Assembly: GCA_032718475.1 (NCBI GenBank)
Contig: JAUCBJ010003970.1
Location: 1-64,000 of the forward strand
DNA from: Nemertoderma westbladi
Lineage: Eukaryota > Animalia > Xenacoelomorpha
DNA: 64,000 nt
Direction of reading: 5' to 3'
The translations under genes were made by a program, and so were the position numbers. This document shows positions 2,956 through 44,310 of the stretch, in pieces (within the stretch, counting starts at the first letter, position 1; every line of letters begins with the position of its first letter). A model generated the notes under the pieces. The model saw only the letters and a program-made list of their open reading frames with translations. It made no database searches and was not told the origin of the DNA.

Positions 2956-3060
2956 CTGCAGACAGAATATATTTGGAATGGTACAAGTCTAAAGGTTTAA
3001 CACATACATCGCAGTAACTGACTCGCTACAAAACCCGGAAAATTATCGTAGGTGCTTTAG

Positions 3061-19662: not shown

Positions 19663-20890
19663 CACATCGATAGATTACAACTTTCCGAGTCAGTAACAGT
19701 ATCTCCTCGATGCCGCTATTTTAGATTTTGGTTTATCAATCAATTAATTATAGAAACTGTTAGGGTATCAATATTGTGTTAACAGCCATGACGTATCGGG
19801 TGATGGGAAATATAATTTTTATTTGATTTATAAATTATAAATTTATAATTAAAAAGGTATTGATTTTCGTTAATTAATTATATTTGAATAAGAAAGGTTT
19901 ATGAAATTTAATTTTTCGTTTATGGTCCGTCCCTTTATAAAAGGCATTGAGACACCGCAGCCGCAGTAAAATCTGATGTAAAATAATCTATATTATATTG
20001 TGTTTGTTTGCAACACTTTCACACCTCGTTAGTGTAATGTATGTAATATGTTAGTAGTTGTGTTGGTGATTTATAAATAAATTAGTAAATCAATGACCCG
20101 CACTCTCCAATCAAGAGAATAATTAATTAAACGCCTTTGTTTTTCTATTACAGTTATTTACTATTAGTTTATAGGATTAATATAATAATAATTTTTGTGA
20201 TATGTAATTATTAATTAATTACCCTATGATCTTTATTATTATGATTAGAGGATTATGGTTATACATATATATTATGTACCACCTTGCGATATGCTGCATT
20301 CCCATTAGATAATAGTTAATTAATAATATTACGAATAAATATCTTTATAGGTACAAATGACTTTGTTTTTCTATTGTGCGCCGTGGTTGTAGGCCGGCAA
20401 AGACCGACTTAGACCGGCAAAAGTCTAACAAAAACTTTAAATGTTCATATCTTTTGATTGCGTGAACGATTTTGGGCTTGTTTTGTAGCTCTTGATAAAC
20501 CCCAGAACATATTTATTTATAACAATTTACAATAATTAATCGTATTTTCATTTGTATTTTTACTGTTTATAGTAGATCCAGTGTAGATCTTGGGTGCAAC
20601 TTTAAGCGTATAGGTTTTTAGTACGCAGCTCCATAGATACCCAAGGCTTGACGACATGTTTTAGTTTTTATATGTTTGAAGAGACAATATGAAAATTAGG
20701 TACAGGACATAAACACGACTTAAATACATATTGATTTCGTCACTGTAAACACGAGGTTTGTAAATAAGGTTTGGGTTTTCTCAAAAAATAATACCGAACT
20801 TTGAAGGTTCATTCACTATTACTGGTAAATTAGGTCTTGAGGCACAATTACGAGCGCATTTTGAAGATAATTTTATGTGCTTTCTGTATA

Positions 20891-21376
20891 AGCACTCCGC
20901 ACCACAGCTTCCAGCACTCCGCACCACAGCTTCCAGCACTCCGCACCACAGCTTCCAGCACTCCGCACCACAGCTTCCAGCACTCCGCACCACAGCTTCC
21001 AGCACTCCGCACCACAGCTTCCAGCACTCCGCACCACAGCTTCCAGCACTCCGCACCACAGCTTCCAGCACTCCGCTCCACAGCTTCCAGCACTCCGCAC
21101 CACAGCTTCCAGCACTCCGCACCACAGCTTCCAGCACTCCGCACCACAGCTTCCAGCACTCCGCACCACAGTTTCCAGCACTCCGCACCACAGCTTCCAG
21201 CACTCCGCACCACAGCTTCCAGCACTCCGCACCACAGCTTCCAGCACTCCGTACCACAGCTTCCAGCACTCCGCACCACAGCTTCCAGCACTCCGCACCA
21301 CAGCTTCCAGCACTCCGCACCACAGCTTCCAGCACTCCGCACCACAGCTTCCAGCACTCCGCACCACAGCTTCCAG
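20891..21376. repeat. 22-bp minisatellite, ~22 copies
   Basis: Unit CAGCACTCCGCACCACAGCTTC. Confidence 0.95.
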
Positions 21377-21890
21377 TAGAAACCTCGAGCTTTATAGAGG
21401 TGGTCAATCTGAGTGATCTCCTTGTTGTGAAATACCTCACTGACGTATTTGACAGAAGGAAAGATGACAGAGGTCCAAAGGAAGTCCGCTGAGACCGCTG
21501 AGACTTTGGAAGCAAGGCGCATACATCTGGCAACATCCTTTTTATAAAGGTGTCTATGATGTACCGAAGGTTTATTTGTAGTAGTAAAAGTCACTGCCAA
21601 GTACTCTAAACTGTTTACAAATTCCCCGGGGGGGGTACCCATATAGTAGAGTTTGTCTAAATTGTCCGCCACGTCTAAATTTAACCGCCTTTGTTTTCGA
21701 GAGTTAAAAAAGTTCGAATTCGAGTGTTAACTTTGCAGTATTCCTCGAGTGCATCGAGCAAGTTTGCTTCCACCACAATTATCCTAAATGCTGTCGATAA
21801 CGCCCCTTCAACAGTCGTAGGAGAGGCGCAGCACAGATGGTCTTCAACGGTTTCCATCATAAGGTCTATCTGGAACCCATAAATATTGGC
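21377..21890 (-). pseudogene. Decayed non-LTR retrotransposon (LINE) RT C-terminal fragment
   Basis: Frameshifted peptides LLDALEEYCKVN and EFVNSLEYLAVTF resemble RT motifs after YADD (LLD.L..YC..N.L; V..FKYLGVTF); no intact YADD seen. Confidence 0.5.
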
Positions 21891-22714
21891 GCCCTACCTC
21901 ATTCTGTATTTGCTGGATATGCCAGGAACCAGCCACAAATAAAGAATACACAAAAGGCTGCTCTTTCTGTTCCGATCTTAGCTAGCTTTACTTTTAATAT
22001 GCCTCAGAGTACCTGATGAATAAATTTTAACAGCTTTTTAACCCCCAATAACTTTTAATTAAAGCTTATTTTATTTAAATTAATTTAATTAACATTAAAT
22101 ATTATGTTTGGTGCCAAATTTTATCATACCCATGGTGGTCATTAAATCGAATATTCAATATAACCACGTTGATGTGACCATATCATCTCCTATGGCGAAG
22201 CTATTGCCAAGAATGTAACGCCAACTCAGAAAAACAACGGAAAAATGTAGATCGTTAACTCAATTTTCGTGGTGCTATAAAATTGGTAACGTTGACGTGT
22301 TTAAATTGAGTCACCACTATTTTAAATACTTATAAGGTTCTCAACCATAAAATAAATCTAATTCGATATTTAATCGACTGTTTGTTCCATGTCGAGCCTA
22401 AAATCAGACGACTTTGGACAGGTTTGTAGACCGTGGGACATGTCGACTTCGGGAAAACTCACAGCAACATCGCCCAAGATCTACAACATTTATATCCAAA
22501 GTCTAAAATTGAGTTCTTGTTCGGAATACGTTTTATTCAAAGTCTACAATAACATGACATTTTCACATGACTTTTCAAGCTCTACAAAACGATTGCATCC
22601 TTTTGGGGGTAATTTTAAATTTTGTTATTGTGCATACGTGCACTGCTGGCTAACTACAGTGTTGATAGCGGTGCGTAGTAATACCAAAAATCATATATGA
22701 ATTATGAAAAACTA

Positions 22715-23909
22715 AATTAATTTTAATATAACTTTATCTTGCTAATATTTTGGCAGTGTGATATAAAGTGATAAAAAGATGACAAAAACACGTTTCGTGG
22801 AATTAAAACTTGAATTTAAACTTGCAATCCCGATCCCATAAATTGGGATCGCGAGAGTGGTAACTGATAATCCCGATCGCGATCCCGGAGATCCGAAAAA
22901 CTCTGGTCCCGTTTAAACACTAATATATTAGTGTGTAAAAGGGATTGTTCAGAAGTAGAAAAATGAAAAAGTGCGTCACCGGGGGTTGACGCACTTTCTC
23001 ATTTTTCTACTTCTGAACAAAGCCATAATATTACACCTTTAATTACAGTTGCAACAGCTCATTTCCAATTTATTTGTTTAAAAGGGATCCCGATCCCACA
23101 AACCCATAATATTTCACCTTTAATTACAGTTGCAACAGCTCATTTCCAATTTATTTGTTTAAAAGGGATCCCGATCCCACAAACCCATAATATTTCACCT
23201 TTAATTACAGTTGCAACAGCTCATTTCCAATTTATTTGTTTAAAAGGGATCCCGATCCCACAAACCCATAATATTTCACCTTTAATTACAGTTGCAACAG
23301 CTCATTTCCAATTTATTTGTTTAAAAGGGATCCCGATCCCACAAACCCATAATATTTCACCTTTAATTACAGTTGCAACAGCTCATTTCCAATTTATTTG
23401 TTTAAAAGGGGATCCCGATCCCACAAACCCATAATATTTCACCTTTAATTACAGTTGCAACAGCTCATTTCCAATTTATTTGTTTAAAAGGGGATCCCGA
23501 TCCCGATCCCTAAAAACCGGGATTCCGGCAAAAAATGCAATCCCGGTCCCGATCCCGACCTTTTTGTACCGGGATCCCGAAGTATAGGCCTATACAGTTA
23601 AGTAAATTTGTTAAATATTCGTATAAATAGTTCCAGCAAAACGGAAATGTTTTGATTATATCGGATTTTTATTTCTGTAAACCATCCAGTAATCAATTGT
23701 AAAATAATTTTAATAATAATTTTATCTTATTAATATTTCAGAAGTGTAAGATAAAGTGATTGTTGCCCAAAACCCGCGATATATACTATTATCGATAAGG
23801 AATTTAATTCAAAATTGCAATCCCGATCCCGAAAAACGGGATCCCGAGAGTGATAATCCCGGTCCCGATCTCAGAAATCCCGAAAAGTCTGATCCCGTTT
23901 AAAACACTA
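22715..23909. mobile_element. Two similar ends of a hAT-like element rich in GGGATCCCG motifs, flanking a hairpin and a tandem array
   Basis: ~22715-22922 and ~23705-23909 are similar and both end in AAACACTA (reverse complement TAGTGTTT, a hAT-type terminus); hairpin at 22946-23020. Confidence 0.5.
23025..23500. repeat. 81-bp tandem repeat, ~6 copies
   Basis: CATAATATTTCACC recurs at 23105, 23186 and 23267. Confidence 0.92.
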
Positions 23910-25916
23910 ATATATATACAGACGATATGTAAACGTTAAAGAAAATATAGTAAGGATCAAGAGGGGGAACCAATTTTAACTAAAATAGATACAATCGCTA
24001 AAAAAAATTAAATTTACAACGATGTTTCTCGTGTTGGGTTTGTTTCGAGGATCACATCAATACAAAGCCAGAACTGATCTCGCTGCTGGACTTGTTGCTG
24101 GCCAAATAATGCTTTTGGATTTATTTCGCAGAAAACTATACTATATAAACTTAGTCGATGAAATACACACGGCGCGCTTTTTGTTTTAAGAATGTCGCCT
24201 GAAATGTTTGTTTGTATTTTTTCAATCTATAATTAATCTATAACTTTTTCCCGGTGAAATTATTCCATTTTATTATATGTGTTGAAAGAGCTTCGAAGTA
24301 GAAAATGTTTGCACGTAATTTGAGCAAAATTCAATGACGCACTCAAAAGTGTCACTTTGGTGTCTGTTGGGCGTATTCCAAAACAGAACTCAATTAATAT
24401 CCAATATTGGTTTGTAGTTGAGCTGCTCTATACTTAAATTAATTAATATTTGCAGAACATTAATTATTTAACATTGAGAAAGACAGCATCAGGAGTTGAA
24501 GAGTACAATAATTTTAATCGCTTTGATTACTAAATTACTGTAGTCGTTCAATTTATTTTGTAACAGTACAAGAAAGTACAAATTTAAGAATAAACTTCCG
24601 TATTACATGGGAAATATACGTTGGACATTATTTCCCAAGTGATAAATAATAATTTTAAATTTATAATTTTTGAATCGATAGTATATCCAAAGTCTACATC
24701 AAAATGTAGACTTTGGAATTTTATATCACGTTCTACGTGAAAATTTGTAGGTAGACTTTTGTAGATTTGTAGACTAGTTTTAGCTCAATAACTTTCCTCA
24801 ACCTGAATCAACCTTATGTTTTATTACCAGATTTGTTTTCAGCACATAAAAAACTATCGAATGATATAAGATACTTGCCTATTTGACCAACTTTGAAATT
24901 TCGCATAAAAATTGCGCTTTTTGCCACTTAAAGTGACAGTGACCTGTAAGCATAGCTTCCAAGTTGCAATATTTTCCATATATATTTCATTTTTCGCAAA
25001 ATTTATACATTCATATCAACTATCAACATCACTAATTCATATCAACATAGAAGAAACAGCGGAGGAGAATGCTACGATTGGCACTTCACCCGTCTCTACT
25101 ACTTGTGAGGCTGTAATTAATTGTACAGCTAATAATATATTGTTTATTATATTTGTTTTACAATTACACTTTAGCTCATTAACCTCTTGTAACCTCTCGT
25201 TTTACCAATGCATTTATATCGGTCATTACTTGATATTTGTTTTCGAGAAATAATTAAACTATATAATTATTTATTTCATTTTCTGTGTTCATTAATCATA
25301 AATAGACTCTAAGATGCTATTATTTTATATCAAATAATACAATAAGATTTTAAAAAATAGTTATTACAGCGGAATTGTAAATTTAAGAAGGTGAAATAAA
25401 TAAGTAATCGCTGACGTATAAGCCTACACAGTACCGGTACACAATTAAAAGTATATACTGTAAATGATGTAAATATTATACAAGATCGCAAGAGCTCTCA
25501 ATATTATAATTAAATTAATAATCAAAGTACAACCAACATTACGTATTTAAATTAATTATTGACTGACTCATTCGTAATACCCACAGACTATATGAATTGA
25601 AAAGTGAAACTCAATTTCAATGACCAGCAAAGCCATGGATCTACTCATTGGACAGTCATTATTTCTATCATATTACCCAGGTAGCTAATCGATTAGCTAT
25701 ATGAGTGTATTTGAGGGGCGAGCCACGTGAGCGTCCGCGGTATAATTAGTGGACCTTCTGTCTTCGTCGTTTGAACACTGATAATTCGGTCAATCTTTGA
25801 TGAATTATACACATAGACAGACTTCTATGGTTCCTTAACCTGCCGGTAGAGGGCGATTGACTAGGTCCACTAACTGTACGTAAAGACTCATCTCGACTTA
25901 CGTTCGCGCGATGCAC

Positions 25917-26193
25917 CGCCCATGTGAAGAATACAAGGATTTCACTTTTCGGTCGACTTTTTATTGGAATTTTATATATGAAGATTTTTTATTTTTTTTA
26001 TTTATCTTTATTAAGTGTTTTATAGCGCTTATTTCTGTCTTATAACCTGTACATATACTAATTCGTTTATTGTTTTGGTTAGATTCAGCTCTTCTGTAAC
26101 ATGTGGTTTCAGTGAAAACCTGGTATTCTTCACATGGGGGTAACTGCAAAGTGAAATATAACGGCAGAAAGTCTGTTATTCTTCACATGGGCC
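25917..26193. mobile_element. MITE family B, complete copy
   Basis: TIR GCCCATGTGAAGAATA / TATTCTTCACATGGGC; TSD CGATGCAC(C) on both sides. Confidence 0.85.
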
Positions 26194-27819
26194 CGATGCA
26201 CCATACCCACTTACGTGTATTGTATTGTTTATTTTGAACATAATTTCGTAAACGATGTATAATAATAAATAATAATAATAAACAACATGAATAATGTAAA
26301 AAAACCCGCGGAGAAACTCGTTGAGCGGACCAAAATATGAATTTATAATATAATTCAGCAAAAGTTTTTAGAAATGTACTGAAGATTACGAGAGTAAAAG
26401 TAATATTAATTGAAACTATGATGCATTGCCTAGTAATAGTTATATGATTGTAAAGAAACTAATATAAAAACCAAAAAAAAAAAAACCGAAACGATAATTT
26501 TATTGCAAACTCCAAAATACATATAAATGGGTTGGATTGCGTTTACACTTCCGGTATCCCATATGTGTGTTGTATATTTGTTTTTAAGGGATGTAAAATG
26601 TGTGTTTTCCATTTTTGAAACAGTTTATGATCAATAAGGGGTAGACTGTTGATGGTTGATAATCAACTGATATACTAGGCTACTGTACGTTGTTTTCTCA
26701 ACTGATGAAATGTGTAAGCTACAAACCGTGCTGGAAATCTTTAAAAAATGTCGGTGTTTCACATACGACAATTGTTTTTTTTTTTTTATCTATATACTGT
26801 AGTAGGGTAGGTATGGTAGCCTATAGTGTTGTCATAAGGTGGGTCTCAGCGCCATCTAGTAAGGAATAAACGCATTATGTTGTAAGAATTTATTTCTTAT
26901 TCTTTCTGCTTTTTATTTACATCGTCGTTGCCATGGTCCTCTGTGGGGGGGGGGGGGGGGGGGGGGGGGGGGTCGGTTGCTCGTTTTTTTTTATTACTTA
27001 TTATAATAAATAGCGTTCACACATACTCTAACTGTACCATAGTGCAGGAAACACCGCCTTCTCAAAGTATTCAGTAATTAAAGTCATGAACTGCAAACTT
27101 GTGACGTCGAAATACAATAATGTAGATTTCGTTTAAAGAAACATCCTTTCTAAAATTAAAACTATTACGGTTAAAAATTGCAATAGTATTATTATACCTA
27201 CATATAAATTAATAGCTCAAATAATTAGAGCTGCACCAATTTAAAGCAAGTGGTTTATAGCAATAAATTACAATCCCTAATCATCTCTAAACAAAGTTTA
27301 CCCAGTGAAATGTAGCCCTACATAAACCTTTGTTTTAATACGTAAGTAAACTAGGGCCTATCTATATACACGTCGGAATAAAGTATAAAATTAAAAATAA
27401 ATGAATAGAAAATTTATACTGTTCGGACGAATGGTCATAATGCTTAAAACTGTCATTGGAATAATTAGCTAAAAAAAATATATATTTCTAAAAAATAAAA
27501 TGGTGAGATTATTAAAAGGTCACTAATAGTTGAGTCAATATAGCAAAAAACCCATAAGCAAAAAACCCATAAGCAAAAAACACATATTTTGGATTCTACA
27601 TATGCCTTGTAAATGTCCAAAAAAGTATATAAAATTTTATTTTGCGGATCATATGTTTAATTTTTGTTTATTTATGGAAATTCAGCGTAAATTTGCATAA
27701 CACAAGCAAATTTCAGGAACAGTATAAGGGAAAGAGTAAGCAACAAGCTGTGATTTAATGGGAAATTAGTAATATTTACACTGGCGTGTTACACATTAAT
27801 TGCTTTTAATTGCTAGTTT

Positions 27820-28140
27820 AGGCCCGTTTTCGCGTTTTTTTTTATGTGCGGTATTCTGAGCTTTTTTTGAGCTTTTTTTCAATCTTGTTTTGTTACGCCT
27901 TTTCTAACGTTCAGTTAAAATGAAGATTTAATATGAATGTTCTAGAATTAGATAATTATGATATTCGACCCATTTTATGAGCTGTTTTTCAAGCTTTTTT
28001 TGGATATATATTCTATATTTTAGGTTTTAACATTCCAAAATTCTCAGATTCATCTTAAAGCAATTAATTTCTAGAAATTGTTTTAACTAAAAAAAAAGCT
28101 TGAAATGAAGCTTATAAAAAAGTAGCGCGGGAAGGGGCCT
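27820..28140. mobile_element. Possible old Harbinger-like MITE
   Basis: AGGCCCGTTTTCGCG ... CGCGGGAAGGGGCCT imperfect TIRs with T-rich and A-rich subterminal regions. Confidence 0.4.
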
Positions 28141-28835
28141 TATCAAGAAGTCGTATCGAATTTTTAAATAGGGGCCTATTGAATATGAAAAGTTACTGAT
28201 ATATTAAGTTAACTGATGCAAAAAAAATTATATAATTGCGTGGAATGTAATAATTTCCATTAATGTTAGCCAAGGTTTTTCACAATAAAATTGTGATTGC
28301 TCTATTGATTTAGGTGTAATTAATTTATTTGTTTTAGTTTAAAAATCACGATAGTTTATCATATGGAGGGGTATCTTTGGGAATAAAGGTTTTTGGGGTC
28401 GACAAATCTGATGGGCGGGGTTTCCCTGGGTTACATACCCCCTTTTTGTAAAGAAGTAGTGTTAATAAGCTTCCCGTTTTGTACCAGCCAAACTGGTAGT
28501 AAAAATCAGGTAATTATTATACAAATTTGTTCCGGAAACTAAATTGGTAACTATCTAGTAGTGCATAGTTCAGTCAATCGCTAGTCATTGGACTAAAGTT
28601 TGTCTACGCCAAGTATATATGGTGAAATCCCACCAAATAGTTGCCTTGTTGCTATGTAAAATCCATGTTGCTAAGGAAAGAAACATGATATTATAATATG
28701 TTTTTCTAGACATTTTTGGAGGAATTAACAAGGTAATTTAGAATAAAAAATTGGTTTGGTTGAATTATGAATTTGTTACGGGTTGACCCCTTTTTGGCTA
28801 GATTGACTCGCCTATCACGACGTTTGTACTATACG

Positions 28836-29296
28836 CTAATTATTTAACTTCTGAAGAAGTACCTTTGGAAATATGTTTGAATTCCAAAAATCTCTACATC
28901 GTGTCATAATATTTGATATATAATCTTTATCATATTGAATCTCCTTTATGGTAACCTGTTTATTGTCTTCGAAGTGGGGGCTTGCAATGCATAACAATCC
29001 CTTTTGTTTATGTGCAAAATGCATTTGCAGTTGGATCTGGGCGAAGGGTCGAGGACGAACTACGCCATCCTTCATGTAACTGAGAACAGTTTCCTCCTTA
29101 GTTGGGCATTTGATCTCGACTGTATATTCTTTTAGTAAACCGTCGGGCGAGGCTCCAAATATTGGATCCTCTGGCATCAACAGCAGCCCGCAAGGTAGAA
29201 CCGCCTCTTTGTATTTCTCCCCTATAACCCGTAACACATCGGGTTCCAACCTCAAGCCTCTCCGCGTTGCCTCATTTCCTTTGAAATTGTCCTTTC
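28836..29296 (-). CDS. YqaJ/lambda-exonuclease-like PD-(D/E)xK nuclease, exon 3 (catalytic core)
   Basis: Acceptor ccgcag at 29297-29298; GLRLEP, CGLLL..PIFGASPDG, VEIKCP and QIQLQM motifs; stop TAG. Confidence 0.9.
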
Positions 29297-29410
29297 CTGC
29301 GGATACACGATGTTGTGACAGGATGTATTGTGTATTATTTTAATTTAATTGAGAAATAAAGTAATTATTCTAAAACAGCATTATTTTAAATATAATACCT
29401 ATAGTTAGGT

Positions 29411-29648
29411 GAGACAGGGGGGGGGGGGGGGGGGGGAACTCGACGCAAAACCCACCTTGGCGAATTAATATCCCGCCTCAATGTTAAATTCTCAATTTAG
29501 GGAAAGGAGCAGGTTACAGTGGCACGTTATTTTAACCAAAACAATAAACTAAACACAATAGAACAGGTTACAGTTTTATTATTGAGAGTAATCAGCTGTT
29601 ATTTGCGTCGAATTTCCCCTGGAGAGGGATGCATTTTTATTGCGTCCA
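29411..29648 (+). mobile_element. MITE family A copy inside nuclease intron 2
   Basis: Close match to the reverse complement of 40689-40917. Confidence 0.85.
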
Positions 29649-29649
29649 G

Positions 29650-29926
29650 TTTTTTTTGTTTTAGATGTAAAAAAATGTCTAAAAATGCCTGGGTTTCTGA
29701 AATGTAACAGAAATGTAGATCAGCACTTCAAATGCTAAAAGTTTTATTTTAAACAGAGAAACTACCTATATCACTACCTAACTCAGATAGGGGATCTATT
29801 AATATACGTAGTTTCTCTGTTTAAAATAAAACTTTTAGCATTTGAAGTGCTGATCAACTGTAGGCCTACTGTTATATTTCAGAAACCCAGGCATTTTAGA
29901 CATTTTTTGGCATCTAAAACAAAAAA
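29650..29926. repeat. Foldback/hairpin with ~120-bp arms
   Basis: ...GATCAGCACTTCAAATGCTAAAAGTTTTATTTTAAACAGAGAAACTAC mirrored at ~29807-29855, with outer arms continuing. Confidence 0.85.
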
Positions 29927-30014
29927 TTGTAAGTGTGGAAGTCCATATTCTGGTGACTAAATACCAGAATACGGGAAAAAAATAAAAGAGCTATATGAAT
30001 GTATCTAAACTAAC

Positions 30015-30231
30015 CAAGGATTTTATCAACCAATGTTCCGTTAGAAGTTTTACATCTAGACGTCTCGTGTAACTTAGAGGCGGTGACTCTCCCGTACCGA
30101 CATTGGAACCAAAGAGGACTACTACTCTGACCTTTCGTAGCCTCGCAAACAGCCTCGCAAATATCGGCTGTCATTGATGACGTCGCAAATTCAATATAAC
30201 TTGCTGGCGTAAGTAAATCAACTTTTTTCTC
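30015..30231 (-). CDS. YqaJ-like nuclease, exon 2 (absent from the ORF track)
   Basis: tacag|GAG AAA...CTT G|gttagt; EKKVDLL...ATKGQSSSPLWFQCRYGRVTASKLHETSRCKTSNGTLVDKIL carries the T.GQ...W...R.GR.TAS motif; phase 1 joins exon 3 in frame. Confidence 0.88.
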
Positions 30232-30371
30232 CTGTATAATGACAATAAACTCATTGAACTCAGTGTGTCTGGTGTATCCGTACTACTGTGGTTCCTTAAC
30301 ATATAAGATGTAGGCCATACCCCGATATAATGTTAGTAATGTAATATGAGAATACATTACTTACAACACTA

Positions 30372-30945
30372 CAGTACATTACTAACAACACTACATTACT
30401 AACAACACTACATTACTAACAACACTACATTACTAACAACACTACATTACTAACAACATTACATTACTAACAACATTACATTTCTAACAACACTACATTA
30501 CTAACAACACTACATTACTAACAACACTACATTACTAACAACACTACATTACTAACAACACTACATTACTAACAACACTACATTACTAGCAACACTACAT
30601 TACTAACAACACTACATTACTAACAACACTACATTACTAACAACACTACATTACTAACAACACTACATTACTAACAACACTACATTACTAACAACACTAC
30701 ATTACTAGCAACACTACATTACTAACAACACTACATTACTAACAACACTACAATACTAACAACACTAGATTACTAACATAACTACATTACTAACAACACT
30801 ACATTACTAACAACACTACATTACTAGCAACACTACATTACTAACAACACTACATTACTAACAACACTACATTACTAACAACACTACATTACTAACAACA
30901 CTACATTACTAACAACACTACATTACTAACAACACTACATTACTA
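30372..30945. repeat. 17-bp minisatellite, ~33 copies
   Basis: Unit CTACATTACTAACAACA. Confidence 0.95.
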
Positions 30946-30946
30946 A

Positions 30947-31181
30947 AGGCCATGATACACCACAGGAGCGGCGAGCGGCAGCGGCGAGCGGCCGCGGCAA
31001 GCGGCCACTTTTTAAAAATAGAACACATTATTTTCTATGGGTGATGATACACCACAAATGGCCGCTGCCGCTCGCCGCTCCTCTGGTGTTTCATAACTAA
31101 AGTCGCCGCTCACATCACATCGGCCGCTCGCCGCGGCCGCCCGTCGCTGCCGCTCGCCGCTCCTGTGGTGTATCATGGCCT
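30947..31181. mobile_element. PIF/Harbinger (Tourist-like) MITE
   Basis: Long GC-rich TIR AGGCCATGATACACCACAGGAGCGGCGAGCGGCAGCG; TAA TSD at 30944-30946 and 31182-31184. Confidence 0.88.
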
Positions 31182-32156
31182 TAACACTAATTAGCTAACA
31201 AGTTGTTGTTCAACTTAGATCAGATGCTTGGAAATTTGTTTAAACTGGATAACATGCGTTACAACTAAGAATCCACTATTCTGCACTAATGCACTACACA
31301 AAATTTAAATGCACTATTAGCTTTAACAGTACCCTACAATAAATAATTAGAACTCCGGGTGGGATGAAGAGAAGACCCCGCAATGCCCGCCAGGTATCGC
31401 TTCTGTATCAGTCCTTGTTACATATTTCAATATAGCCCGTACAGAAGGTAAGGTTGCTTTTATTTATTTTGTTGTTCTGGATTTATCTCAAGTTAGCTCA
31501 CAATTTAGACTGGGTTCGATCCTGGTCTGGTTTTGTGACTTTTTTTCTTAAAGTTTAGGAAGTTTCGTTTACAGCCCGCTTGCTGGCTTTTCTTCTTAGG
31601 TCAGGGATACTTGACCCAAGGTGGGACATGACAGAACCACATTAATGTTTTTATTACTACGCAATTTACATTAATCACTAAGTCTACTACAGTAAGGGCA
31701 AATATTTATTTAAAGTATATACAGTAGGTTTCCTGAACTATTCCGGAAATACTGTAGTAATACTGTAAATAATACCAACGCCTTGTTAAGTGTTCCCTCC
31801 CCTCCAGTGTAGTTTGAAGCTTCAAATTAGAATTTAAAGATATTTAAATTTTTCAACAATTTTACTTATCCGCAAGACTCATTCATATAATTAATTACAC
31901 TAAGGTTCAATTAGTGATATTGACTGATTGAAGTCAAGTACCGGCTGACCGGTATTTATTGCAAATTGAATTCCTAATCGGTAATGGTCCGGTCAGCCGG
32001 TTGTACCTTATCAAATTAATTTCTCGAAAACTTTTCGAAATTTACTGTAGGGCCTATTATATTTTCAATTAATTTGCCCTATGGGATTGAAGTACAATTT
32101 GTATAATTTGTTAAATAAATAAATAATTCTGTAGGCTTATTAAAATAAAGTCTAAC

Positions 32157-32342
32157 CTTATTCTTGTTACAATAATTTTTAATCAGGGTATCAATTTTCA
32201 CAAATTCAGAAGCATCTTCTAGTTCTCCTTTAATAAGTAGTTTTCCAAACTTTTCTATAAGATTGTCAGGGTCTTCATTGTCGCCTCCCGCTCCCGGGGT
32301 TTTGGAATCACTTGTAGTTGCGTGAAGAGGAAGCGATGCCAT
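32157..32342 (-). CDS. Probable first coding exon of the YqaJ-like nuclease
   Basis: acaATGg start; MASLPLH...NYCNKNK|gttaga phase-0 donor is compatible with the phase-0 acceptor of exon 2; no recognised domain, so the link is inferred. Confidence 0.6.
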
Positions 32343-33167
32343 TGTTATGTAATCAAATGAAACGCAATATTATTCTGAACGGTACATATAAATTGGTAAA
32401 TTAGTTTGGATTGGAGAATCGGTTTGTCGTTTTTAAATCTTTCTGCGTCTACTTAAGCAGTGGAAAGCTCCTTTAAGGGTAGACGGAGAACAATGTTTCC
32501 TTTGTGGATACGGAAGTTTTCTGCTGAATACCTTATTCATAAATCATAACTACAGACAGATTGAAGTGAAGAATTCGTCAAGTCCTCGATATGCAGAGAA
32601 AGGAGCAGGTTACATTGGTATAATAATTTCGTCTTTTTCGTATTTTCAGGTTTTATAACCGCAATAATTTTTCTTGTCCGTTTAAATCCTTTTTTTGTCC
32701 TTTTTTTTTACTTTTATGTCCTCCAAAAATCTACCGTTAGGTTCCTTGCTACCGGTTTCTCTACTGCTGTTCTCTTAGGCTATAAGTACCGGTATTAGTA
32801 TATAGAGCACTATTTTGCAGTATTGCATTGTATGTAGGTATAAAGCATATGCCTTAGAAATAATTATACTGTCTGACTGTATTATACCACATTACAGCAT
32901 TAGGTACTGACTCACTGATACTGTAATATGTACAGTTGTAAATATGATAGGCCTAATTGAGCTGAATTGTGATAAGTCCATACTATAGGCTTAAGTCGTT
33001 TTGTTTTATTCACTGTTCAACTTTCTCCTGTTTTATTATGTGCAGTTTTGTTTATACGCTTCTATGACAGCGGGTCTCCACCCACATAATATAATAATAA
33101 TAATGATAAAGGTAATTTATTAATTACGGTAATTTCAGAATTTTAGTATCGGTACCGGATTTACATA

Positions 33168-33935
33168 GTTTATTGTTATGTTCATGATATAGTTTATTGT
33201 TTTGGTTAGAAAATCCCGCCTCTGTAACCCGCTCCTTTCCCTCAATTAGTTAAATGATCGCGTTTATTGTTTTGGTTAGAAAATCCCGCCTCTGTAACCT
33301 GCTCCTTTCCCTGATTTGGTAAAGTGACCGTTTATTGTTTTGGTTAGAAAGGCCCGCCTCTGTAACCTGCTCCTTTCCTTCATTTGGTAAAGTGACTGTT
33401 TATTGTTTTGGTTAGAAAATCCCGCCTCTGTAACCCGCCCCTTTCCCTCAATTAGTTAAATGATCGTTTATTGTTTTGGTTAGAAAATCCCGCCTCTGTA
33501 ACCTGCTCCTTTCCCTCAATTAGTTAAGTGATCGTTTATTGTTTTGGTTAGAAAATCTCGCCTCTGTAACCTGCTCCTTTCCCTGATTTGGTAAAGTGAT
33601 CGTTTATTATTGTTTTGGTTAGAAAAGCCCGCCTCTTTAACCTGCTCCTTTCCTTCAATTGGTAATGTTATCGTTTATTGTTTTGGTTAGAAAAGACCAT
33701 CTATGTAACCTGCTCCTTTCATTCATTTGGTAAAGTGATTGTTTATTGTTTTGGTTAGAAAATCCCGCCTCTGTAACCTGCTCCTTTCCCTGATTTGGTA
33801 AAGTGACTGTTTAATGTTTTGGTTAGAAAGGCTAGCCTCTGTAACCTGATCCTTTCCTTTATTTGGTAAAGTGACCGTTTATTGTTTTGGTTAGAAAATC
33901 CGGCCTTAACCTGCTCCTTTCCATCAATTGGTAAT
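33168..33935. repeat. ~61-bp tandem array (~12 copies) of the shared module
   Basis: GTTTATTGTTTTGGTTAGAAAATCCCGCCTCTGTAACCTGCTCCTTTCCCT... repeated. Confidence 0.92.
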
Positions 33936-34204
33936 TGTTTTTGGCTATAAAATGAGTGTTTTGCTACGTCATGTGGTAATCGATTATCGACAACAACCAC
34001 AAACTATTAAATTTAGAGTCTTTTACCACACTGCCACAGGCGCATATGGCAATCTAGCTCATAGTCTATAAATCATGGAATTTTGAATGTTTTGGCACAG
34101 ACATAGTGAAACCAACTGTCCGACAGACCAGAAATCAACAAATTTTGAATGTTTTGGCATAGGCATGTTGAAATCAACTGTCTGACACTCCAGAAATCAG
34201 CAGT

Positions 34205-34535
34205 CTGACAGTTTGAAGAAATACATACATAAAAAGTCATTAAAAGGACAATAAAAGTCATTAAAGGGACAACAAAAGTCATTATGCACAATTCGTAAAA
34301 AAATGAGGACAAAAAAGTCAAATAAAAGGACATAAAAAATCACTGCCTTTTATAACTATCCTGGGGTAAATCTTTTCGACCTACGCGTAGCTACGCTGTT
34401 TTTAAGAGCAGCGATTTCTGTATGACCGTTCTTTTGACTTTTTTGTCCACATTTATTTACGAATTTACCATAATGAATTTTGTTGTCCGCTCAATGACTT
34501 TTTATGTATGGACGCATTTGTTCGTCAAACTGTCA
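34205..34535. mobile_element. Old TIR element
   Basis: TGACAGTTTGAAGAA...ATACATAAAAAGTCATT mirrored by AATGACTTTTTATGTAT...TCAAACTGTCA. Confidence 0.5.
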
Positions 34536-34754
34536 TTAGAGTAAAGTTTGTCTGTCCCAATTTGGAGTAAGTCCCACCAATCTGCCAATAGACCCCTTGT
34601 TGCTATGTAAAATCCATGTTGCTAAGAAAATAAACAGTAAATTGAAGGTGATCCACATACTTTATTTTATAGACTTTTTTGGGTGGTATTATCAAGGTAG
34701 GCTAAATATGGAATTAACAAATTGGTTTGGATGTGCGAATTTGTTATTGGTTAA

Positions 34755-35420
34755 CCCCCCCTCCTTGCTGGGTGAGCCAAAATTTTTATTTTTGTTTTCA
34801 TTCTTTAGCTACAAGCATTTGAAAAAGGTGTCTACGTCGATATTGAACATGTTACACTTCGGTTATTCTTCAATCATATAGTGATTTATATGTACAGTTA
34901 GATAGCAAATGGATTCCAAATATGTATCGCAATCTGAATTTCCTCGTAAAATAGCTTAGATATGGGTGTTCGAATGTTGCATGGTTATTTTAGGCTATTT
35001 TATTCTATTTAATACCATATTCTAGAACATATTGTTTATTCCATACGTAGCTGGGCAACAATGCAATAACTCTATAATAAAATATTCTGTAGCTATTCAT
35101 AAATAAACAAAGTGCTCCAGAATATTGTTTATTTGTTAAATAGAATAAAATAACCTCTCGCAGGCGCATAACCATGCACTTTCGAACGCTCATATCTTAG
35201 CTATTTTACGACGAAATTCAGATTGTGATACACATTTGGTATCCTTGCATGGCCAGCTTTCTAACTGTAGGCCTACCAACAAATCATATAAGATTGGAGA
35301 ATAACTGCAGTGTAACTTGTTCAATATCGATGGAGACACCTTTTTCAAACACTTGTTGCTAAAGAGCTAAAGAATGAAAGCAAAAAAAAATTCTGGTACA
35401 CCCACTAAGGAGGAGGGAGG
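34755..35420. mobile_element. Foldback element with ~235-bp imperfect arms
   Basis: ~34755-34990 is the reverse complement of ~35168-35420 (e.g. TTTGAAAAAGGTGTCT / AGACACCTTTTTCAAA). Confidence 0.8.
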
Positions 35421-36202
35421 TGAAACTGCCTCTGTTTCAAATTTCATACAATCTCATTACGATTTGTAGAAAAATTTGGGAGGGGGGGGGGGGGGGTGGG
35501 GGTTGGGCAGGTATCTGAATAAACACACTATATTCCAGGACGTGGTGTATATGGGAAAGATCTAAGTTCACCCAAGATCTAAGTTCGTTCAGGATCTAAG
35601 GTGATCTAGCAGTCTCGGATCTAAAGCAGGGGAACCGCCTGTAGGTAGGCCTATTCTATATTCAGATATTCTCCAGGCTAATTTCCTGATTACAGAATAA
35701 GGAATTGTAACGGTTGGACGTCTATGCTGCTATGTCTGTCTGTATGTATGTGTAATCTGGTAATGCAGTACTGCAGTACCGGTACCAAGACCGACTGTGA
35801 CTGACCATTATTGGCGTAATACTGTAATAGGCCTACCAATACTGCTGTACTGTAATATGGACCGGCTGACTGGTGCACGGTGATGCCTCGATAACCAACT
35901 GTCTGACAATCTGACCGTCAGCTGTCAGCAGACCAGCAAACCGTAACTAAAACTATTGACTGATTGAACTACCCCTATACCCAATCTGCCAATCCAACCC
36001 CAACCCAAACCCAGCTGCCAGCAACCGCCTGAACGGGGACCGCTGAGCTGCTGAGACCCTTGCAGCCTTGCACCTTGCGTACTCCTGTACTCCAGCATCC
36101 AGTACTCCAAACAGCCATACTCGCGCAGGTACCGCGCGGTTCCGGTCCGGTTTCAGGTCTGTCTGTCTGTGGTCTGTCGGTATCAGGATTGTGAAAGGTG
36201 CA

Positions 36203-36257
36203 ATGGAAAAGAAGCTGGAAAAAGAAATCTTATTCGATTATGATGTAAAAGTTAAAG
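36203..36257 (+). CDS. SRGAP: SLIT-ROBO Rho GAP (srGAP) first coding exon
   Basis: MEKKLEKEILFDYDVKVK-G|gtaggt resembles the vertebrate srGAP N-terminus KKDKEIIAEYE.Q.KE; phase 1 joins the exon at 58522. Confidence 0.8.
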
Positions 36258-36828
36258 GTAGGTCAGGCTGTCAGGGTCATGGTGAAATGACATTTCTACT
36301 TCTGTAGGCTGGTAGGCCTACTTATCCTGTTATCGGCTTATTTCTTTGTCAGTTTGTTGGCAACATTGATCTATTCCTGTATGCTGTATTCGTATTTGTA
36401 TAAACTATGACAACAAACAGACAAACGGGACTGGTTAATGGCTGAATGGGACCCTCCTGAATGCAGACAGTTTTCTGCATTTTTTGCAATTTTCAGCTTT
36501 TGTTTTATCGTTTGTTTTACAAACGTATGTTTTACAGTTTGTTTTGGTTTCTTCTGGCTACCACTGTAACCTCTGAACTGAACCTGCTCCTTTACTTTTC
36601 ATTTTTTTTTGTGATTTGGTGTGATTTGTTCTGTTGTTGTGATTCTGAAATCAGCACTCAGGTGTCAGGCTGTCAGGAGGGTCCCCTCCCCTATCCTGTC
36701 AGCCTGTTGTGCTTTTTCTTAACCAGTGCCCAACCTGCCAACAAACTGACAAAGGCTGAAAGGTTATTGGACTCGGGTCTATCGTCAGATCGTTATTCGT
36801 TCCCTAAGTCAGTAAGTGTGATGTGACA

Positions 36829-37386
36829 GACCGAACGTAATCAGATCGACAGACAGACAGATCGAATGTAACATAATTTTTACGAATCGAACGTAACCTC
36901 AATTATGTTACATTGGATCCTATAACTACAGAACTATGTTACATTCGATCTACAAATTACTAAGCCCGAATGTAACATATATTTATTTATTTTGTGTTTT
37001 GTTGATTTCAGGAGTTAACCGATGAAATGCTTCCTTTATTTACAGGAAGAAACTAGTTTAGTGAGTACAAAACAAAGACCCAAGACCCAATTAAGTAACC
37101 TGCATAATCTTGTACCATACAGTATGTCAGTACCGTATGTGTTAACTTTCGTTTATTGTTTTGGTTCCCCCAATGCACAATGCCCAACACGCCTTTGTAA
37201 CATAGGCCTACTCCTTTCTGCCTTTAGCTTTAAATGGCAATGTTACATTCGGGCATAGTAATTTGTAGATCGAATGTGACATACCGGTAGTCAGATAGTT
37301 ATAGGATCCAACAGTCCAATATAACATAATTGCGGTTATGTTCGATACGTAATAACTGTTACATTCGATACTGATTACGTTCGGTC
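36829..37386. mobile_element. TIR element with long subterminal inverted repeats
   Basis: GACCGAACGTAATCAG ... CTGATTACGTTCGGTC; mirrored GAATGTAACAT / ATGTTACATTCG motifs. Confidence 0.75.
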
Positions 37387-38772
37387 ATGTATCCGTTGCC
37401 TAACCCCGTAAGCCCGTCGTGTAGGCCTAGGTTATTTGCAACTTGATCACTTGCTGACTTGTACAACACTGTCTGACTGTACAGTATTTTAACTTTGCTA
37501 TTTATGGAATCGGTTATCTTTGGAAATTTGTAATAGAAGAACTTATATTTTTGAAATTAGTAATGTTTGTTTTTTAAATATCGTAAATTATTTTGCGATA
37601 ACTTGATGTAATAATTTTAAATCCCTTGTATTTTTAATGTGTGTTGTAAATATAAGTTTGTAATAATTAATTAGTATTTGTATTTAAATAATGTGCAGAA
37701 CTATATATTTGATTACGATGCCCTCTGCATGACTAATGTTAGAAGGGGGCACGTTAATAAGCCATTATTATTATTATTATTATATTGTTGAGAAGTCAAA
37801 CAACTCGTGAAATTTTGCTTTTGTTAAGCAGATTATAAAAGTGGCTTCTACCTGTCTACCGTAGGCTACTGCATACTGCTTTTCAAGTGGCATATTACAG
37901 TATTATAAAAGTGACCAATGAGAATGACCAGAGATAATGACCTGACCATCTGTTACACTTATATCTGTTCTGATGCACATGAGCTGTAGCGCAGCATCAG
38001 CCTTCACAGCTTCATGCAGTGCACCAATTGCTGATGCCATGATAATTGATAAAGGGATGGTCTACAGCTAAAGTTGAAAGTTGCAGAACTGACTGACTGA
38101 CAAGCAGTCACTCTCACTCACGTAGTCAGTTGCACTTGCCAGTTCAGCAGTTTGCAGTTCAGAGGGTTCGGCAGTTCCTCGTAATCAGGTTGAAAAAATT
38201 CCCGCCCTCTACGCTCGCTAGGCGCCTTTGAGATGGTTTTTCTCGTTTTACCATTTACATCACATCACGTTGGCTTGGGCTTGGCTGGTTCCATGCTACC
38301 ATGTTAATTTTATGTTTTACTTTTAATGTGTACCGGTACCGGCTGATCAGTACCGCGGTAGGTGCCAGATGGTAGGCTACGTAGTTCATACTCTTCTTCT
38401 GGCTGTTTGGTATTATTGCAATATTGCTATGTCAATATTGGATGAGATTCACTTTACACTAACCGACTAAACCACTAAACACAATGCCAATATTGACTTG
38501 ACACTAAATGTCAATATAACTTTTGTAACTTTCAGTCCAATCAAACATATTATATTGGTCTACCGGTACCTGTGAGGATTTGGTAAAGATAATATTCATG
38601 GTTTTTACTATTTTCTGTCTAAAGGACACATTCTGTTTACAAAAACAAATTTTATAGGTTAGCATACTCCTACCAGCACCATGAATTTTCAACGCTGTCC
38701 AAAACAAAGACTTATTTTTTGCTAAAAACATATAAGATAATTTTCAGATCTAATGAAAAACTGTAGGCTAGG

Positions 38773-39386
38773 CTGGTGTAACGGAGAATTTCCACGCCCC
38801 TAAATATTCCCCTCCCGGTTAAAATTCCCTAGTGTATTTTTACCCCCGATTAGAATTTATTTTCTTAAGCTTTTACTTAAAATAATAATTTTGTAGTTAT
38901 TGTCATTACTTAGATTTTGGCGCTTACACCTCATCCTAATGCAGTTGTAGGCTATCATTAACGATGCTTGTAAAAGGAGTTATATACAGTAACACACTCC
39001 GCTAAACTCATTCTAAGCGACCAGGTTTAGCAGATATATTATTTTGATCAATAGCGGTACCCAAGATAATCAGTAGCCAAGAAGACCAGGTTTAGCACAT
39101 TTAAAAACATGAGGCCTACGGAAATGTTGTGTGCTCCTATATTCTTGCTATCTTATTACATTTTCACTAGAGGATTCTAAAATACACTTAGGGAAAAACA
39201 CCGGGAGTGAGAATACACTAGGGAAATTTAACCGGGGATGGATTTGCAAAGAGTGAAAATTGATAAATGCAGCCGGGTGAGTTTACACTGGAGGAGGTTA
39301 AAATACACCCAGGGAGTGAGATTTCACCAGAGGGTTTTAACCGGGGGTGATTTTGCATGGGGATTGAAAATTCTGTGTTACACCGG
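38773..39386. mobile_element. TIR element (CYGGTGTAAC ends)
   Basis: CTGGTGTAACGGAGAATTT ... AAAATTCTGTGTTACACCGG with mirrored CCGGTTAAAATTCCCTAGTGTA motifs; no clear TSD. Confidence 0.6.
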
Positions 39387-40001
39387 AGTACGGTAACGTA
39401 TTATAATTTTATTTTCTTTAAAATATCTCATTTATTGTTGATTACTTACTGTTGATTTCGCATTATTTATTCTAGATGAGTAATTTACGTTGGTAATTAT
39501 TAATAAATTTAGCATTAAAATGTTTATTATTTATTGCTCTCTTGTTGCTTTACTCGACTTTCTGGTTTACATGTATACCCGTTGTAACTATTTCGGCAAC
39601 TTCGATCACACCGATTATCTTGATCGGCAACCTAAGTTGCTGAGAAAGTTGCCACGTGTTGTAAACCTACCTTTAATTATTTGATTTAACTTTTGGAATA
39701 TCAATTTCACACACAAAGTGAAGCTATGTAGTGTATAGCAGGTAGTATTATTTAATTATTATTTAATTTTTTTAATTATTATTAGGTGCAACATTTTACT
39801 CAAATTTTAGTTAAATTTGTTACGTTAAACTTCTGATTTAAGCAAAAACATATTATCATGTTATGTTATATTTTATTTATTATTTTTATTATTTATTATT
39901 TTATTATATGTATTAACAGCGAGTTGTTATTTAGCACTTTACAACTTTAGATGACATTACAGCATTGTATTGGCCTGTACATTTAGTATTGTATTTGGTG
40001 T

Positions 40002-40092
40002 TATTGTTTACGTGGTAACCCATGACGGCGTTAAGTAATGTCCTCTAAGGGGACATTACTTAACACCGTCATTGGATACCACGTAAACAATA
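40002..40092. repeat. ~91-bp near-perfect palindrome
   Basis: TATTGTTTACGTGGTA...GTTAAGTAATGTCC / GGACATTACTTAAC...TACCACGTAAACAATA. Confidence 0.85.
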
Positions 40093-40341
40093 GGTGGAAA
40101 TTTGCCTGACAGCCAGATTGGCCAACTGCATTACCTACCGGTAGGCGGGGTAGGGCCTAGCTATATTATTATAACATGGCTCCAAACGCCACCATAAATA
40201 TAAGCTAACTTATTTATAACATAATATATGTCATTTTTACATTTATTTATATACAGCAACTAATATAATTTGTACAGTTTCTATCACTTATAATGTATAT
40301 GTACAATCATTTCGTAATGTTAAAATTTTGGAATAAAACTA

Positions 40342-40480
40342 CATACATACTTGTTGCAAAGTACTTTACAGTGTTCTGATCCTCGTGGCTTTATTTTCAC
40401 TCACTAACTAACGTTCATTCGTGTAACAAAGACACTCGGATCATCACACTGTAAAGTGCTACTTTACACACAAGTATGTA
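40342..40480. repeat. Imperfect inverted repeat (MITE remnant)
   Basis: TACATACTTGT..CTTTACAGTG..GATCC mirrored by GGATC..CACTGTAAAG..ACAAGTATGTA. Confidence 0.55.
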
Positions 40481-40688
40481 AATCGTTATTACTCGAAATA
40501 GTAGCATTTTTCTCGAAAATAAAATATTATCTCGAAAATCCGTCTCTAATCTAATATTAATCATTCCTCGAAAGTGCGGATTAAAAAGTCGGACAAATAA
40601 CTATATACGTCATTGTTCATAAAATAGCATTTTATAGCGTGGCGGCACGTGTGTTTTTGACATGACAAAATTTGGGCCATAAACATTT

Positions 40689-40917
40689 CAGATAGGGGGG
40701 GGGGGGGGGGGGGGGTGGACGCAATAAAAATTAATCCCTCTCCAGGGGAAATTGGACGCAAATAACAGTTGATTACTCTCAAAAATAAAACTGTAACCTG
40801 TTTTATTGTGTTTAGTTTATTGTTTTGGTTAAAATAACGTGCCATTGAGAATTTAACATTGAGGCGGGATATTAATCCGCCAAGGCGGGTTTTGCGTCGA
40901 GTTTCCCCCCCTGTCTC
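40689..40917 (-). mobile_element. MITE family A, complete copy
   Basis: Ends CAGATAGGGGG / CCCCCTGTCTC; 8-bp TSD AAACATTT / AATCATTT. Confidence 0.8.
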
Positions 40918-41254
40918 AATCATTTAAACTGCAGATTATTATCAATGGCGAATTTAATTTTATTTAGTTTGTGAATTATTTGTAATTATGCACTTGAGCT
41001 CTCTAAAACAACCTTGTAACAGTAAAGCGTGATATTTCTATCTCGTACCCAACTGGCAGCGAAGTGGATAACGCATTAGGTTATAAATATGACTTCCATT
41101 GGTTCGATTCTCACCTATTTCATTTATGTAAGTTTTAGAATTGTGAAATAGTTTTAGTATGTATATATGTATTCGTATGACGTCATGTGATTATATTTAG
41201 AATGACGCGGTGATATACTAGACGTGGACGTGATCATGCATAATAAATGTATGG

Positions 41255-44200: not shown

Positions 44201-44310
44201 TGAAATACACTGCCAGCGTAGGAGATACACTGCTAGCGTATGAGATACACTGCTACCGTAGGAGATATAATGCTGCCGTATGAGGTACACTGCTACCGTA
44301 GGAGCTACCA
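41255..44310. repeat. 20-bp minisatellite (~150 diverged copies)
   Basis: Unit CTACCGTAGGAGATACACTG. Confidence 0.95.

What the first reader, a model, noticed from the sequence alone, without database searches (positions are those of the whole stretch)
28836..32342. Intact spliced lambda-exonuclease/YqaJ gene with no transposase: candidate domesticated nuclease
Seen: exons 32342-32157, 30231-30015 and 29296-28836 join with GT-AG and matching phases into 864 nt (287 aa) without stops. They retain T.GQ..W..R.GR.TAS, the motif-I Glu (LRLEP), SPDG, EIKCP and QIQLQM. The introns have accumulated two MITEs, a foldback and a minisatellite while the exons stayed open. I saw no DDE transposase, TIRs or N-terminal zinc finger. 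Known: YqaJ-type PD-(D/E)xK alkaline exonucleases are phage/viral recombination enzymes and occur in animals mainly as accessory ORFs of DNA transposons (ISL2EU, some Kolobok). Inference: a long-resident, selected host gene, possibly acting in end resection, recombination or TE control.
Basis: partly seen in the sequence, partly recalled or inferred. Interest (0 to 1): 0.75.

Follow-up and report, generated by a model that had tools for sequence, protein, structure and literature searches.

The report
Transposon exonuclease likely kept by host
This invertebrate locus holds an unbroken, intron-split gene for a phage-lambda-type enzyme predicted to chew DNA ends; its closest relatives are helper genes of jumping DNA, but the jumping machinery is missing here, so the host has likely kept the enzyme for its own use.

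Summary
Three minus-strand exons join with GT-AG ends into 287 open codons. Exons 2 and 3 encode a complete lambda/LHK-type (YqaJ) exonuclease with the catalytic and 5'-phosphate-pocket residues in place; exon 1 looks coding but has no detectable homology.

The closest relatives (up to 50% identity) are second-ORF exonucleases of ISL2EU (PIF/Harbinger-type) DNA transposons. In 3 of 3 independent relative loci with enough flank, a DDE_Tnp_4 transposase lies tail-to-tail 70-300 nt away. The window has no trace of that transposase, of matching element ends, or of the SWIM-like N-terminus that 66 of 73 long relatives carry.

The intronic insertions look about 2-2.5% old. Unselected exons would stay open with probability 0.06-0.3, and keep all conserved residues too with 0.003-0.05. 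This supports selection moderately. Copy number, expression, synteny and dN/dS could not be tested.

Verdict: likely a host-kept ISL2EU exonuclease (0.6); main rival is a recently stranded transposon remnant (0.27). A dipteran clade with a lost or decayed SWIM region hints at a parallel case. My paper searches found no described domestication of this gene.

The parts
32157..32342 (-). Exon 1 (62 codons from ATG), likely coding; low-complexity start, takes the place of the family's SWIM-like N-terminus
   Evidence: Open, ATG-started, phase-0 donor; coding-like statistics; no significant homology
30232..32156 (-). Intron 1, 1925 nt, GT-AG, phase 0; 43% recognisable repeats
30945..31183 (.). MITE with terminal inverted repeats and TAA target duplication (PIF/Harbinger type)
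   Evidence: Arms 58 of 61 identical; flanks; TWA duplications define PIF/Harbinger per PMC4482050 (passage)
30371..30946 (.). 17-bp minisatellite, 33.9 copies
30015..30231 (-). Exon 2: helical lead-in and 5'-phosphate pocket (W103, R107, T112, S114)
   Evidence: Pfam Viral_alk_exo E 8.7e-7; family profile E 3e-25; residues invariant in 97 of 97 relatives
29297..30014 (-). Intron 2, 718 nt, GT-AG, phase 1; 69% recognisable repeats
29652..29926 (.). Foldback / MITE-like inverted repeat
   Evidence: Arms 112 identities, 6 mismatches, 3 gaps
29429..29648 (.). Dispersed repeat with sister copies elsewhere in the window
   Evidence: 176 identities, 8 mismatches, 1 gap to the copy at 40716-40905; other copies more distant
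28836..29296 (-). Exon 3: catalytic core (E152, S184, D186, E195, K197, Q221) and stop
   Evidence: Pfam YqaJ E 2.4e-9; model pLDDT 95.2; Foldseek LHK-Exo 3syy E 2.1e-8, TM 0.82; residues
26500..28835 (+). Place where ISL2EU relatives carry the convergent transposase; here only unrelated repeats, no transposase remnant
36203..36257 (+). Neighbour, not part of the gene: likely first coding exon of an F-BAR (srGAP-like) gene, head-to-head, ATG to ATG 3861 nt
   Evidence: Joins in phase to the exon starting at 58522 that hits Pfam FCH, E 2.2e-11; the name srGAP is recalled

Best explanation
This is an intact three-exon gene for a lambda/LHK-type exonuclease, descended from the second gene of an ISL2EU DNA transposon, that has likely been kept under selection by the host after the transposase and element ends were lost, and that is predicted to chew double-stranded DNA ends 5' to 3'. 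Shown: open spliced frame for exons 2-3, fold, catalytic and phosphate-pocket residues, nesting among ISL2EU-type proteins, absence of transposase and SWIM-like region. Inferred: exon 1 as the true start; Mg-dependent digestion from 5'-phosphorylated ends leaving 3' overhangs, probably as a ring-shaped trimer (by analogy with LHK-Exo); selection in place. Most likely cellular job (inferred, about 0.25 on its own): trimming free DNA ends such as transposon excision breaks or excised linear elements, no longer tied to its own transposase because the SWIM-like module is gone.
For: Frame and splice sites. Pfam; the family profile's best PDB matches are LHK-Exo (E 5.6e-22) and lambda exonuclease (E 2e-13); exon 3 model matches 3syy with TM 0.82. 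W103, R107, T112, S114, E195, K197 and Q221 are invariant in 97 of 97 relatives; E152, S184, D186 in 93, 95, 96 of 97; all are kept, with no deletion in well-filled columns. Their roles in LHK-Exo are from PMC3239189 (abstract and passages). Relatives in 3 of 3 independent loci with flank lie beside a convergent DDE_Tnp_4 transposase, as ISL2EU is defined in PMC4482050 (passages). The same transposase profile finds even a frameshifted copy (L005/L006, E 1e-24) but nothing in the window (best E 2.3). No SWIM-like match in the window (best E 8.2) against 66 of 73 long relatives. Neither intron position is shared with 5 independent relative loci. Intronic insertions are 4.3-5.1% diverged from sister copy or arm; simulated neutral decay of 2-3% leaves exons 2+3 open in 6-31% of runs, and open with the 40 conserved residues in 0.3-5%.
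Against: No test of copy number, synteny, dN/dS or expression was possible. Insertion ages are upper bounds, because arms and sister copies may differ at insertion; at 1% decay the frame stays open in 37-57% of runs. Four insertions missing the exons has P 0.13 by chance. The protein keeps 40 of 44 conserved columns, below the relatives' median of 42 (82 of 97 keep as many or more); the four changes are conservative, but if some arose after immobilisation the stricter probabilities overstate selection. The position of LHK-Exo Tyr134 is Pro218 (also in 3 of 97 relatives); Tyr134Ala cut LHK-Exo's rate to about 25%. Exon 1 has no significant homology. Transposon-borne relatives also have introns. 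The nearest AATAAA lies about 500 nt past the stop. The transposase profile is built mostly from insect proteins and could miss a more distant one.
Confidence: 0.6

Rival explanations
1. It is a recently stranded or non-autonomous ISL2EU remnant: the transposase and 5' part were deleted, and the exonuclease exons are still open only because little time has passed or because related elements were using it until lately.
For: All context-bearing relatives are transposon genes. Neutral survival of the open frame is 25-57% at 1-1.5% decay. Exon 1 may not be the true start. Unchecked notes on this genome report other intact DNA transposons with accessory genes.
Against: No transposase or SWIM-like fragment anywhere in 64 kb, while a decayed copy is found easily. 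Introns are 718 and 1925 nt with four insertions, and both keep GT-AG ends and phase. No element-end pair with a matching target duplication. A coding-like exon 1 in the right phase.
Confidence: 0.27
2. It belongs to an old cellular animal exonuclease lineage with no recent transposon ancestry, and its likeness to ISL2EU proteins reflects only a shared deep family.
For: The AU test does not reject joining the window protein to a dipteran clade lacking an intact SWIM-like region (p 0.41).
Against: Its nearest tree neighbour P0008 carries the SWIM-like region, and it nests among such proteins, though without starred support. All 5 of 30 looked-up relatives with a taxon name are insects. No hit exceeds 50% identity.
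Confidence: 0.08
3. It came directly from a virus or phage by horizontal transfer and later gained introns.
For: The fold is that of phage exonucleases; 370 viral stretches encode a relative.
Against: The best of 80 viral loci scores 72 bits (36% over 130 aa) against 176 bits for transposon locus L001 (40% over residues 59-278). Viral matches cover only the catalytic part.
Confidence: 0.03

Closest known systems
ISL2EU transposon second ORF (YqaJ exonuclease; PHIS / PIF-Harbinger superfamily; PMC4482050, PMC4122938, PMC9179366, passages)
   Same: Same protein family: 40-45% identity to the exonuclease of L001 and L003, which lie tail-to-tail with a DDE_Tnp_4 transposase.
   Different: No transposase, no element ends or AT duplication, no SWIM-like N-terminus, long repeat-filled introns at positions not seen in 5 relative loci, and an unrelated first exon.
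LHK-Exo (PDB 3syy) and phage lambda exonuclease (1avq, 3slp); Pfam YqaJ PF09588
   Same: Fold (TM 0.82 and 0.75), PD-(D/E)xK catalytic residues and 5'-phosphate pocket.
   Different: Eukaryotic and spliced; extra N-terminal ~95 residues; Tyr134 position is Pro; no annealing-protein partner seen nearby; trimer and activity untested.
Domesticated PIF/Harbinger genes of insects (DPLG/DPM, APLG/APM, LPLG/LPM; PMC9710019, passages)
   Same: Host retention of a gene from a PHIS-superfamily element, including the accessory ORF, with loss of element ends.
   Different: Those accessory genes encode MADF proteins and were kept beside their transposase; here the accessory gene is a nuclease kept alone. 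That paper has 0 hits for 'exonuclease' and 'ISL2EU'.
KolobokE (PMC9587614, passages)
   Same: A DNA transposon lineage encoding a lambda-exonuclease-like nuclease.
   Different: Its nuclease lies downstream of the Kolobok transposase domain; this gene's relatives pair with a separate, convergent DDE_Tnp_4 transposase. No KolobokE sequence was compared directly.

Membership tests
YqaJ / lambda-exonuclease family | Pfam YqaJ match above curated cut-off | tested here: met
   38 bits vs cut-off 22 on exon 3
YqaJ / lambda-exonuclease family | Lambda-exonuclease fold | tested here: met
   Exon 3 model pLDDT 95.2; 3syy TM 0.82, 1avq TM 0.75
YqaJ / lambda-exonuclease family | Catalytic E...PD...ExK and phosphate pocket R, T, S, S, Q | tested here: met
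   E152, D186, E195, K197; R107, T112, S114, S184, Q221
YqaJ / lambda-exonuclease family | Active-site Tyr (LHK-Exo Tyr134) | tested here: not met
   Pro218; the column is variable in relatives, Tyr in 45 of 97, so it does not define this subfamily
YqaJ / lambda-exonuclease family | Toroidal trimer and processive Mg-dependent 5'-3' activity | not tested
   No complex prediction was run; activity needs an assay
ISL2EU transposon (as an element) | Transposase ORF with DDE, HTH and THAP domains | tested here: not met
   Best E 2.3 in six frames of the window; controls found; Pfam 0 families in three + frames of 26500-28832
ISL2EU transposon (as an element) | Terminal inverted repeats starting GG with AT target duplication | tested here: not met
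   6 GG-starting 14-mer pairs between 20000-28835 and 32343-41200, none with matching duplication, at most 19 of 30 identical; short or decayed ends could be missed
ISL2EU transposon (as an element) | Second ORF with YqaJ domain | tested here: met
Domesticated transposon gene (criteria of PMC9710019) | Loss of element ends and other hallmarks of activity | tested here: met
Domesticated transposon gene (criteria of PMC9710019) | No related copies in the genome | not testable with these tools
   No genome held; only one copy in the 64-kb window
Domesticated transposon gene (criteria of PMC9710019) | Synteny in distant species | not testable with these tools
   No eukaryotic genome collection; no look-alike stretch in the scan's index
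Domesticated transposon gene (criteria of PMC9710019) | Purifying selection (dN/dS below 1) | tested here: inconclusive
   No orthologue for dN/dS; the indirect decay test gives moderate support

The most novel reading that the evidence does not exclude
Animals have repeatedly turned the ISL2EU transposon's lambda-type exonuclease into a stand-alone host nuclease by dropping its SWIM-like module: once in this invertebrate and once in flies (the clade holding Anopheles nili and Culicoides brevitarsis proteins), giving them a phage-Red-style DNA end-resection enzyme not described in eukaryotic genome maintenance.
Probability: 0.3. Interest if true: 0.72.

Novelty: new variant of a known kind. 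Interest (0 to 1): 0.46.

Why it matters
The function of the ISL2EU second ORF was called unknown in PMC4482050 (2015; passage). Described domestications of PHIS accessory genes concern MADF proteins (PMC9710019, passages). A host-kept, catalytically intact copy would be a nuclease domestication from an accessory gene without its transposase. It would also give a compact protein with which to assay what these exonucleases do. My eight paper searches (open-access library only) showed no such case, although PMC12711996 (one passage) lists a male-expressed YqaJ-domain gene in the Aedes albopictus M-locus. If the rival holds, this is an ordinary transposon remnant.

Tried and rejected
No whole genome is held, so copy number was not tested. 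No RNA holder was listed for 28600-32600; this says nothing on expression. A scan of prokaryotic genomes did not run. Scan-index look-ups by sequence, place and words found no look-alike of this stretch and no note on an exonuclease among 79 windows of this genome. tblastn of 120 transposases against the window gave two hits (E 0.013 and 0.042) more than 19 kb away, at unrelated places; treated as chance. The direct-orientation control in my element-end search (399 pairs) was swamped by repeats and is not used. Exon 1 in the ESM Atlas gave no hit above 0.78. Alternative first exons: of 8 phase-0 candidates with a strong donor in 30290-45000, exon 1 has the longest ATG frame; none is favoured by homology. 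The intron in L003 lies 10 nt upstream of the window's intron 2 and in another phase, so it is not shared. Host placement: the neighbouring beta-ureidopropionase is at most 66% identical to anything listed and groups with spider mites on a long branch (SH-aLRT 97), which I do not take as a placement. The name 'SWIM' for the relatives' N-terminal motif is only weakly backed: Pfam SWIM E 0.069 on 1 of 3 relatives scanned at a loose cut-off, and a middling match to ZSWIM8, Z 7.1, rmsd 2.9, 83 residues. The SWIM-region profile was built from the same relatives it was counted on. No complex prediction was run. No supplements were read; those of PMC4482050 hold ISL2EU family tables that may bear on intron positions and on the host range.

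Full report
Observation. They join with GT-AG ends in phases 0 and 1 into 864 nt, 287 codons plus stop. Exon 3 matches Pfam YqaJ above its cut-off, exon 2 matches Viral_alk_exo, and exon 1 matches nothing. Relatives align up to and on from the same codon at the exon 2-3 junction, so that junction is secure. Exon 1 is less secure. It ranks 14th of 508 candidate upstream exons in profile score and does not beat shuffles on the linker profile (117 of 1000 as good). It is coding-like, though: only 2 of 193 strong donors in unmasked window sequence end an ATG-started phase-0 frame this long, and its GC1-GC2 excess is in the top 1.5% of non-coding windows.

The protein. A profile of 40 relatives finds LHK-Exo (E 5.6e-22) and lambda exonuclease (E 2e-13) first among solved structures. 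A model of exon 3 (pLDDT 95.2) matches 3syy with TM 0.82. The residues that PMC3239189 (abstract and passages) assigns to the 5'-phosphate pocket and to catalysis map to R107, T112, S114, S184, Q221 and K197. These and the acidic E152, D186 and E195 are kept, with no deletion in well-filled columns. One departure is Pro218 in place of LHK-Exo Tyr134; that column is Tyr in 45 of 97 relatives. Overall the protein keeps 40 of 44 conserved columns against a median of 42, and the four changes are conservative. I therefore predict an active Mg-dependent 5'-3' exonuclease; this is inference.

Origin. Exon 3 finds 868 cluster representatives at E up to 0.001, and the best 150 are 32-50% identical (one search added 7 longer proteins). 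Of 30 hits looked up, 5 carry a taxon name and all 5 are insects. A metagenome scan gave 8 loci. L001 holds a related ORF tail-to-tail with a DDE_Tnp_4 transposase (E 9e-40) whose relatives often carry THAP, and the contig begins GG. This fits the ISL2EU definition in PMC4482050 (passages). A profile of those 120 transposases finds the same arrangement in L003 and in the frameshifted L005/L006 (one locus seen twice), 70-300 nt past the exonuclease stop. That is 3 of 3 independent loci with enough flank; L002, L004, L007 and L008 are too short. In trees of 98 and 43 rows the window protein nests among these proteins with an end branch of 0.69-0.79 (median about 0.5) and without starred support for its exact place. 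Viral relatives are far more distant: 72 bits at best against 176 for L001.

What is missing. The transposase profile finds nothing in six frames of the window (best E 2.3), and Pfam finds nothing in the three frames where the transposase would lie. No GG-starting inverted pair with a matching target duplication flanks the gene. A profile of the relatives' N-terminal Cys/His motif matches 66 of 73 relatives of 310 aa or more and 7 of 8 metagenome loci, but not the window (best E 8.2). I call this motif SWIM-like on weak evidence. Neither intron position occurs in five independent relative loci, although those loci have introns of their own. The locus is therefore not an ISL2EU element but a descendant of its second gene.

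Is it selected? No genome and no RNA run were available, so the criteria of PMC9710019 (passages: single copy, synteny, dN/dS) could not be applied. The indirect test uses the introns. They are 43% and 69% recognisable repeats: a MITE with a TAA duplication, a 17-bp minisatellite, a foldback and a dispersed repeat. Arms or sister copies differ by 4.3-5.1%, about 2-2.5% per copy. Simulated neutral decay of 2-3% leaves exons 2+3 open in 6-31% of runs, and open with the 40 conserved residues in 0.3-5%; at 1% the figures are 37-57% and 15-24%. These ages are upper bounds, and four insertions missing the exons has P 0.13 by chance alone. The evidence favours selection in place but does not prove it.

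Neighbourhood and host. The gene lies head-to-head, 3.9 kb from the likely first exon of an F-BAR gene whose next exon hits Pfam FCH (the name srGAP is recalled). An intronless beta-ureidopropionase lies 9 kb past its 3' end; its best listed hits are 66% identical and its tree position is unreliable. The host is an animal of a poorly sampled lineage.

A possible parallel. A starred five-protein clade (100/99) includes proteins of Anopheles nili and Culicoides brevitarsis. Read by eye, four members have short unrelated N-termini and the Anopheles protein has a decayed motif, while the catalytic residues are kept; some may be incomplete predictions. This suggests an older fly domestication with the same anatomy; I saw no genomic context for it. 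The AU test does not reject joining the window protein to that clade (p 0.41), so one or two events cannot be told apart.

Literature. Eight searches showed no domesticated ISL2EU exonuclease. I read passages of PMC4482050, PMC9179366, PMC4122938, PMC9587614, PMC9710019, PMC12711996, PMC13289751, PMC5718144 and PMC3424549, and the abstract and passages of PMC3239189; no supplements. PMC12711996 lists a YqaJ-domain gene in the Aedes M-locus, and PMC13289751 filters YqaJ genes out as transposon-related, which shows how such genes are overlooked.

Verdict. A real, intact, spliced exonuclease gene of ISL2EU ancestry, likely host-kept (0.6), against a stranded remnant (0.27), an old cellular lineage (0.08) or viral transfer (0.03). 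New variant of a known kind; interest 0.46.

Noticed in passing
proteins P0083, P0080, P0103, P0097, P0110: A well-supported clade of YqaJ proteins, including Anopheles nili XP_053672250.1 and Culicoides brevitarsis XP_063696094.1, with the SWIM-like region decayed or absent and catalytic residues kept: a candidate old dipteran domestication.
   Followed up: partly
window 18520-19659 (+): Intronless beta-ureidopropionase ORF (380 aa, GC 56%), best listed hits 66% identical.
   Followed up: partly
window 36203-36257 and 58522-58706 (+): First two coding exons of an F-BAR (srGAP-like) gene separated by a 22-kb intron.
   Followed up: partly
window 37942-38260 (-): GC-rich, promoter-like stretch followed by a short ATG-started frame ending at a GT, antisense inside the F-BAR gene's first intron; no Pfam hit. 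It could be another gene's first exon or a distant alternative start.
   Followed up: partly
window 28584-28790 and 34532-34758: Two copies of a ~220-bp repeat, about 70% identical, in direct orientation on either side of the gene; no further copy found in the window.
   Followed up: partly
window 33192-33934: 68-bp tandem array (10.9 copies) whose unit is related to part of the dispersed repeat in intron 2 and to copies at 16354, 18150, 48630 and 61439.
   Followed up: no
window 2735-3025 (-): Exon of a Ras-family gene (Pfam Ras E 4.4e-16).
   Followed up: no
window 21400-21730 (-): Frameshifted stretch resembling the end of a non-LTR reverse transcriptase (resemblance recalled; no Pfam support).
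   Followed up: no
L001 1-3931; L005/L006 about 8000-10050 (L006): A near-complete ISL2EU-type element (exonuclease and transposase tail-to-tail) and a frameshifted copy of another, in metagenome contigs.
   Followed up: yes
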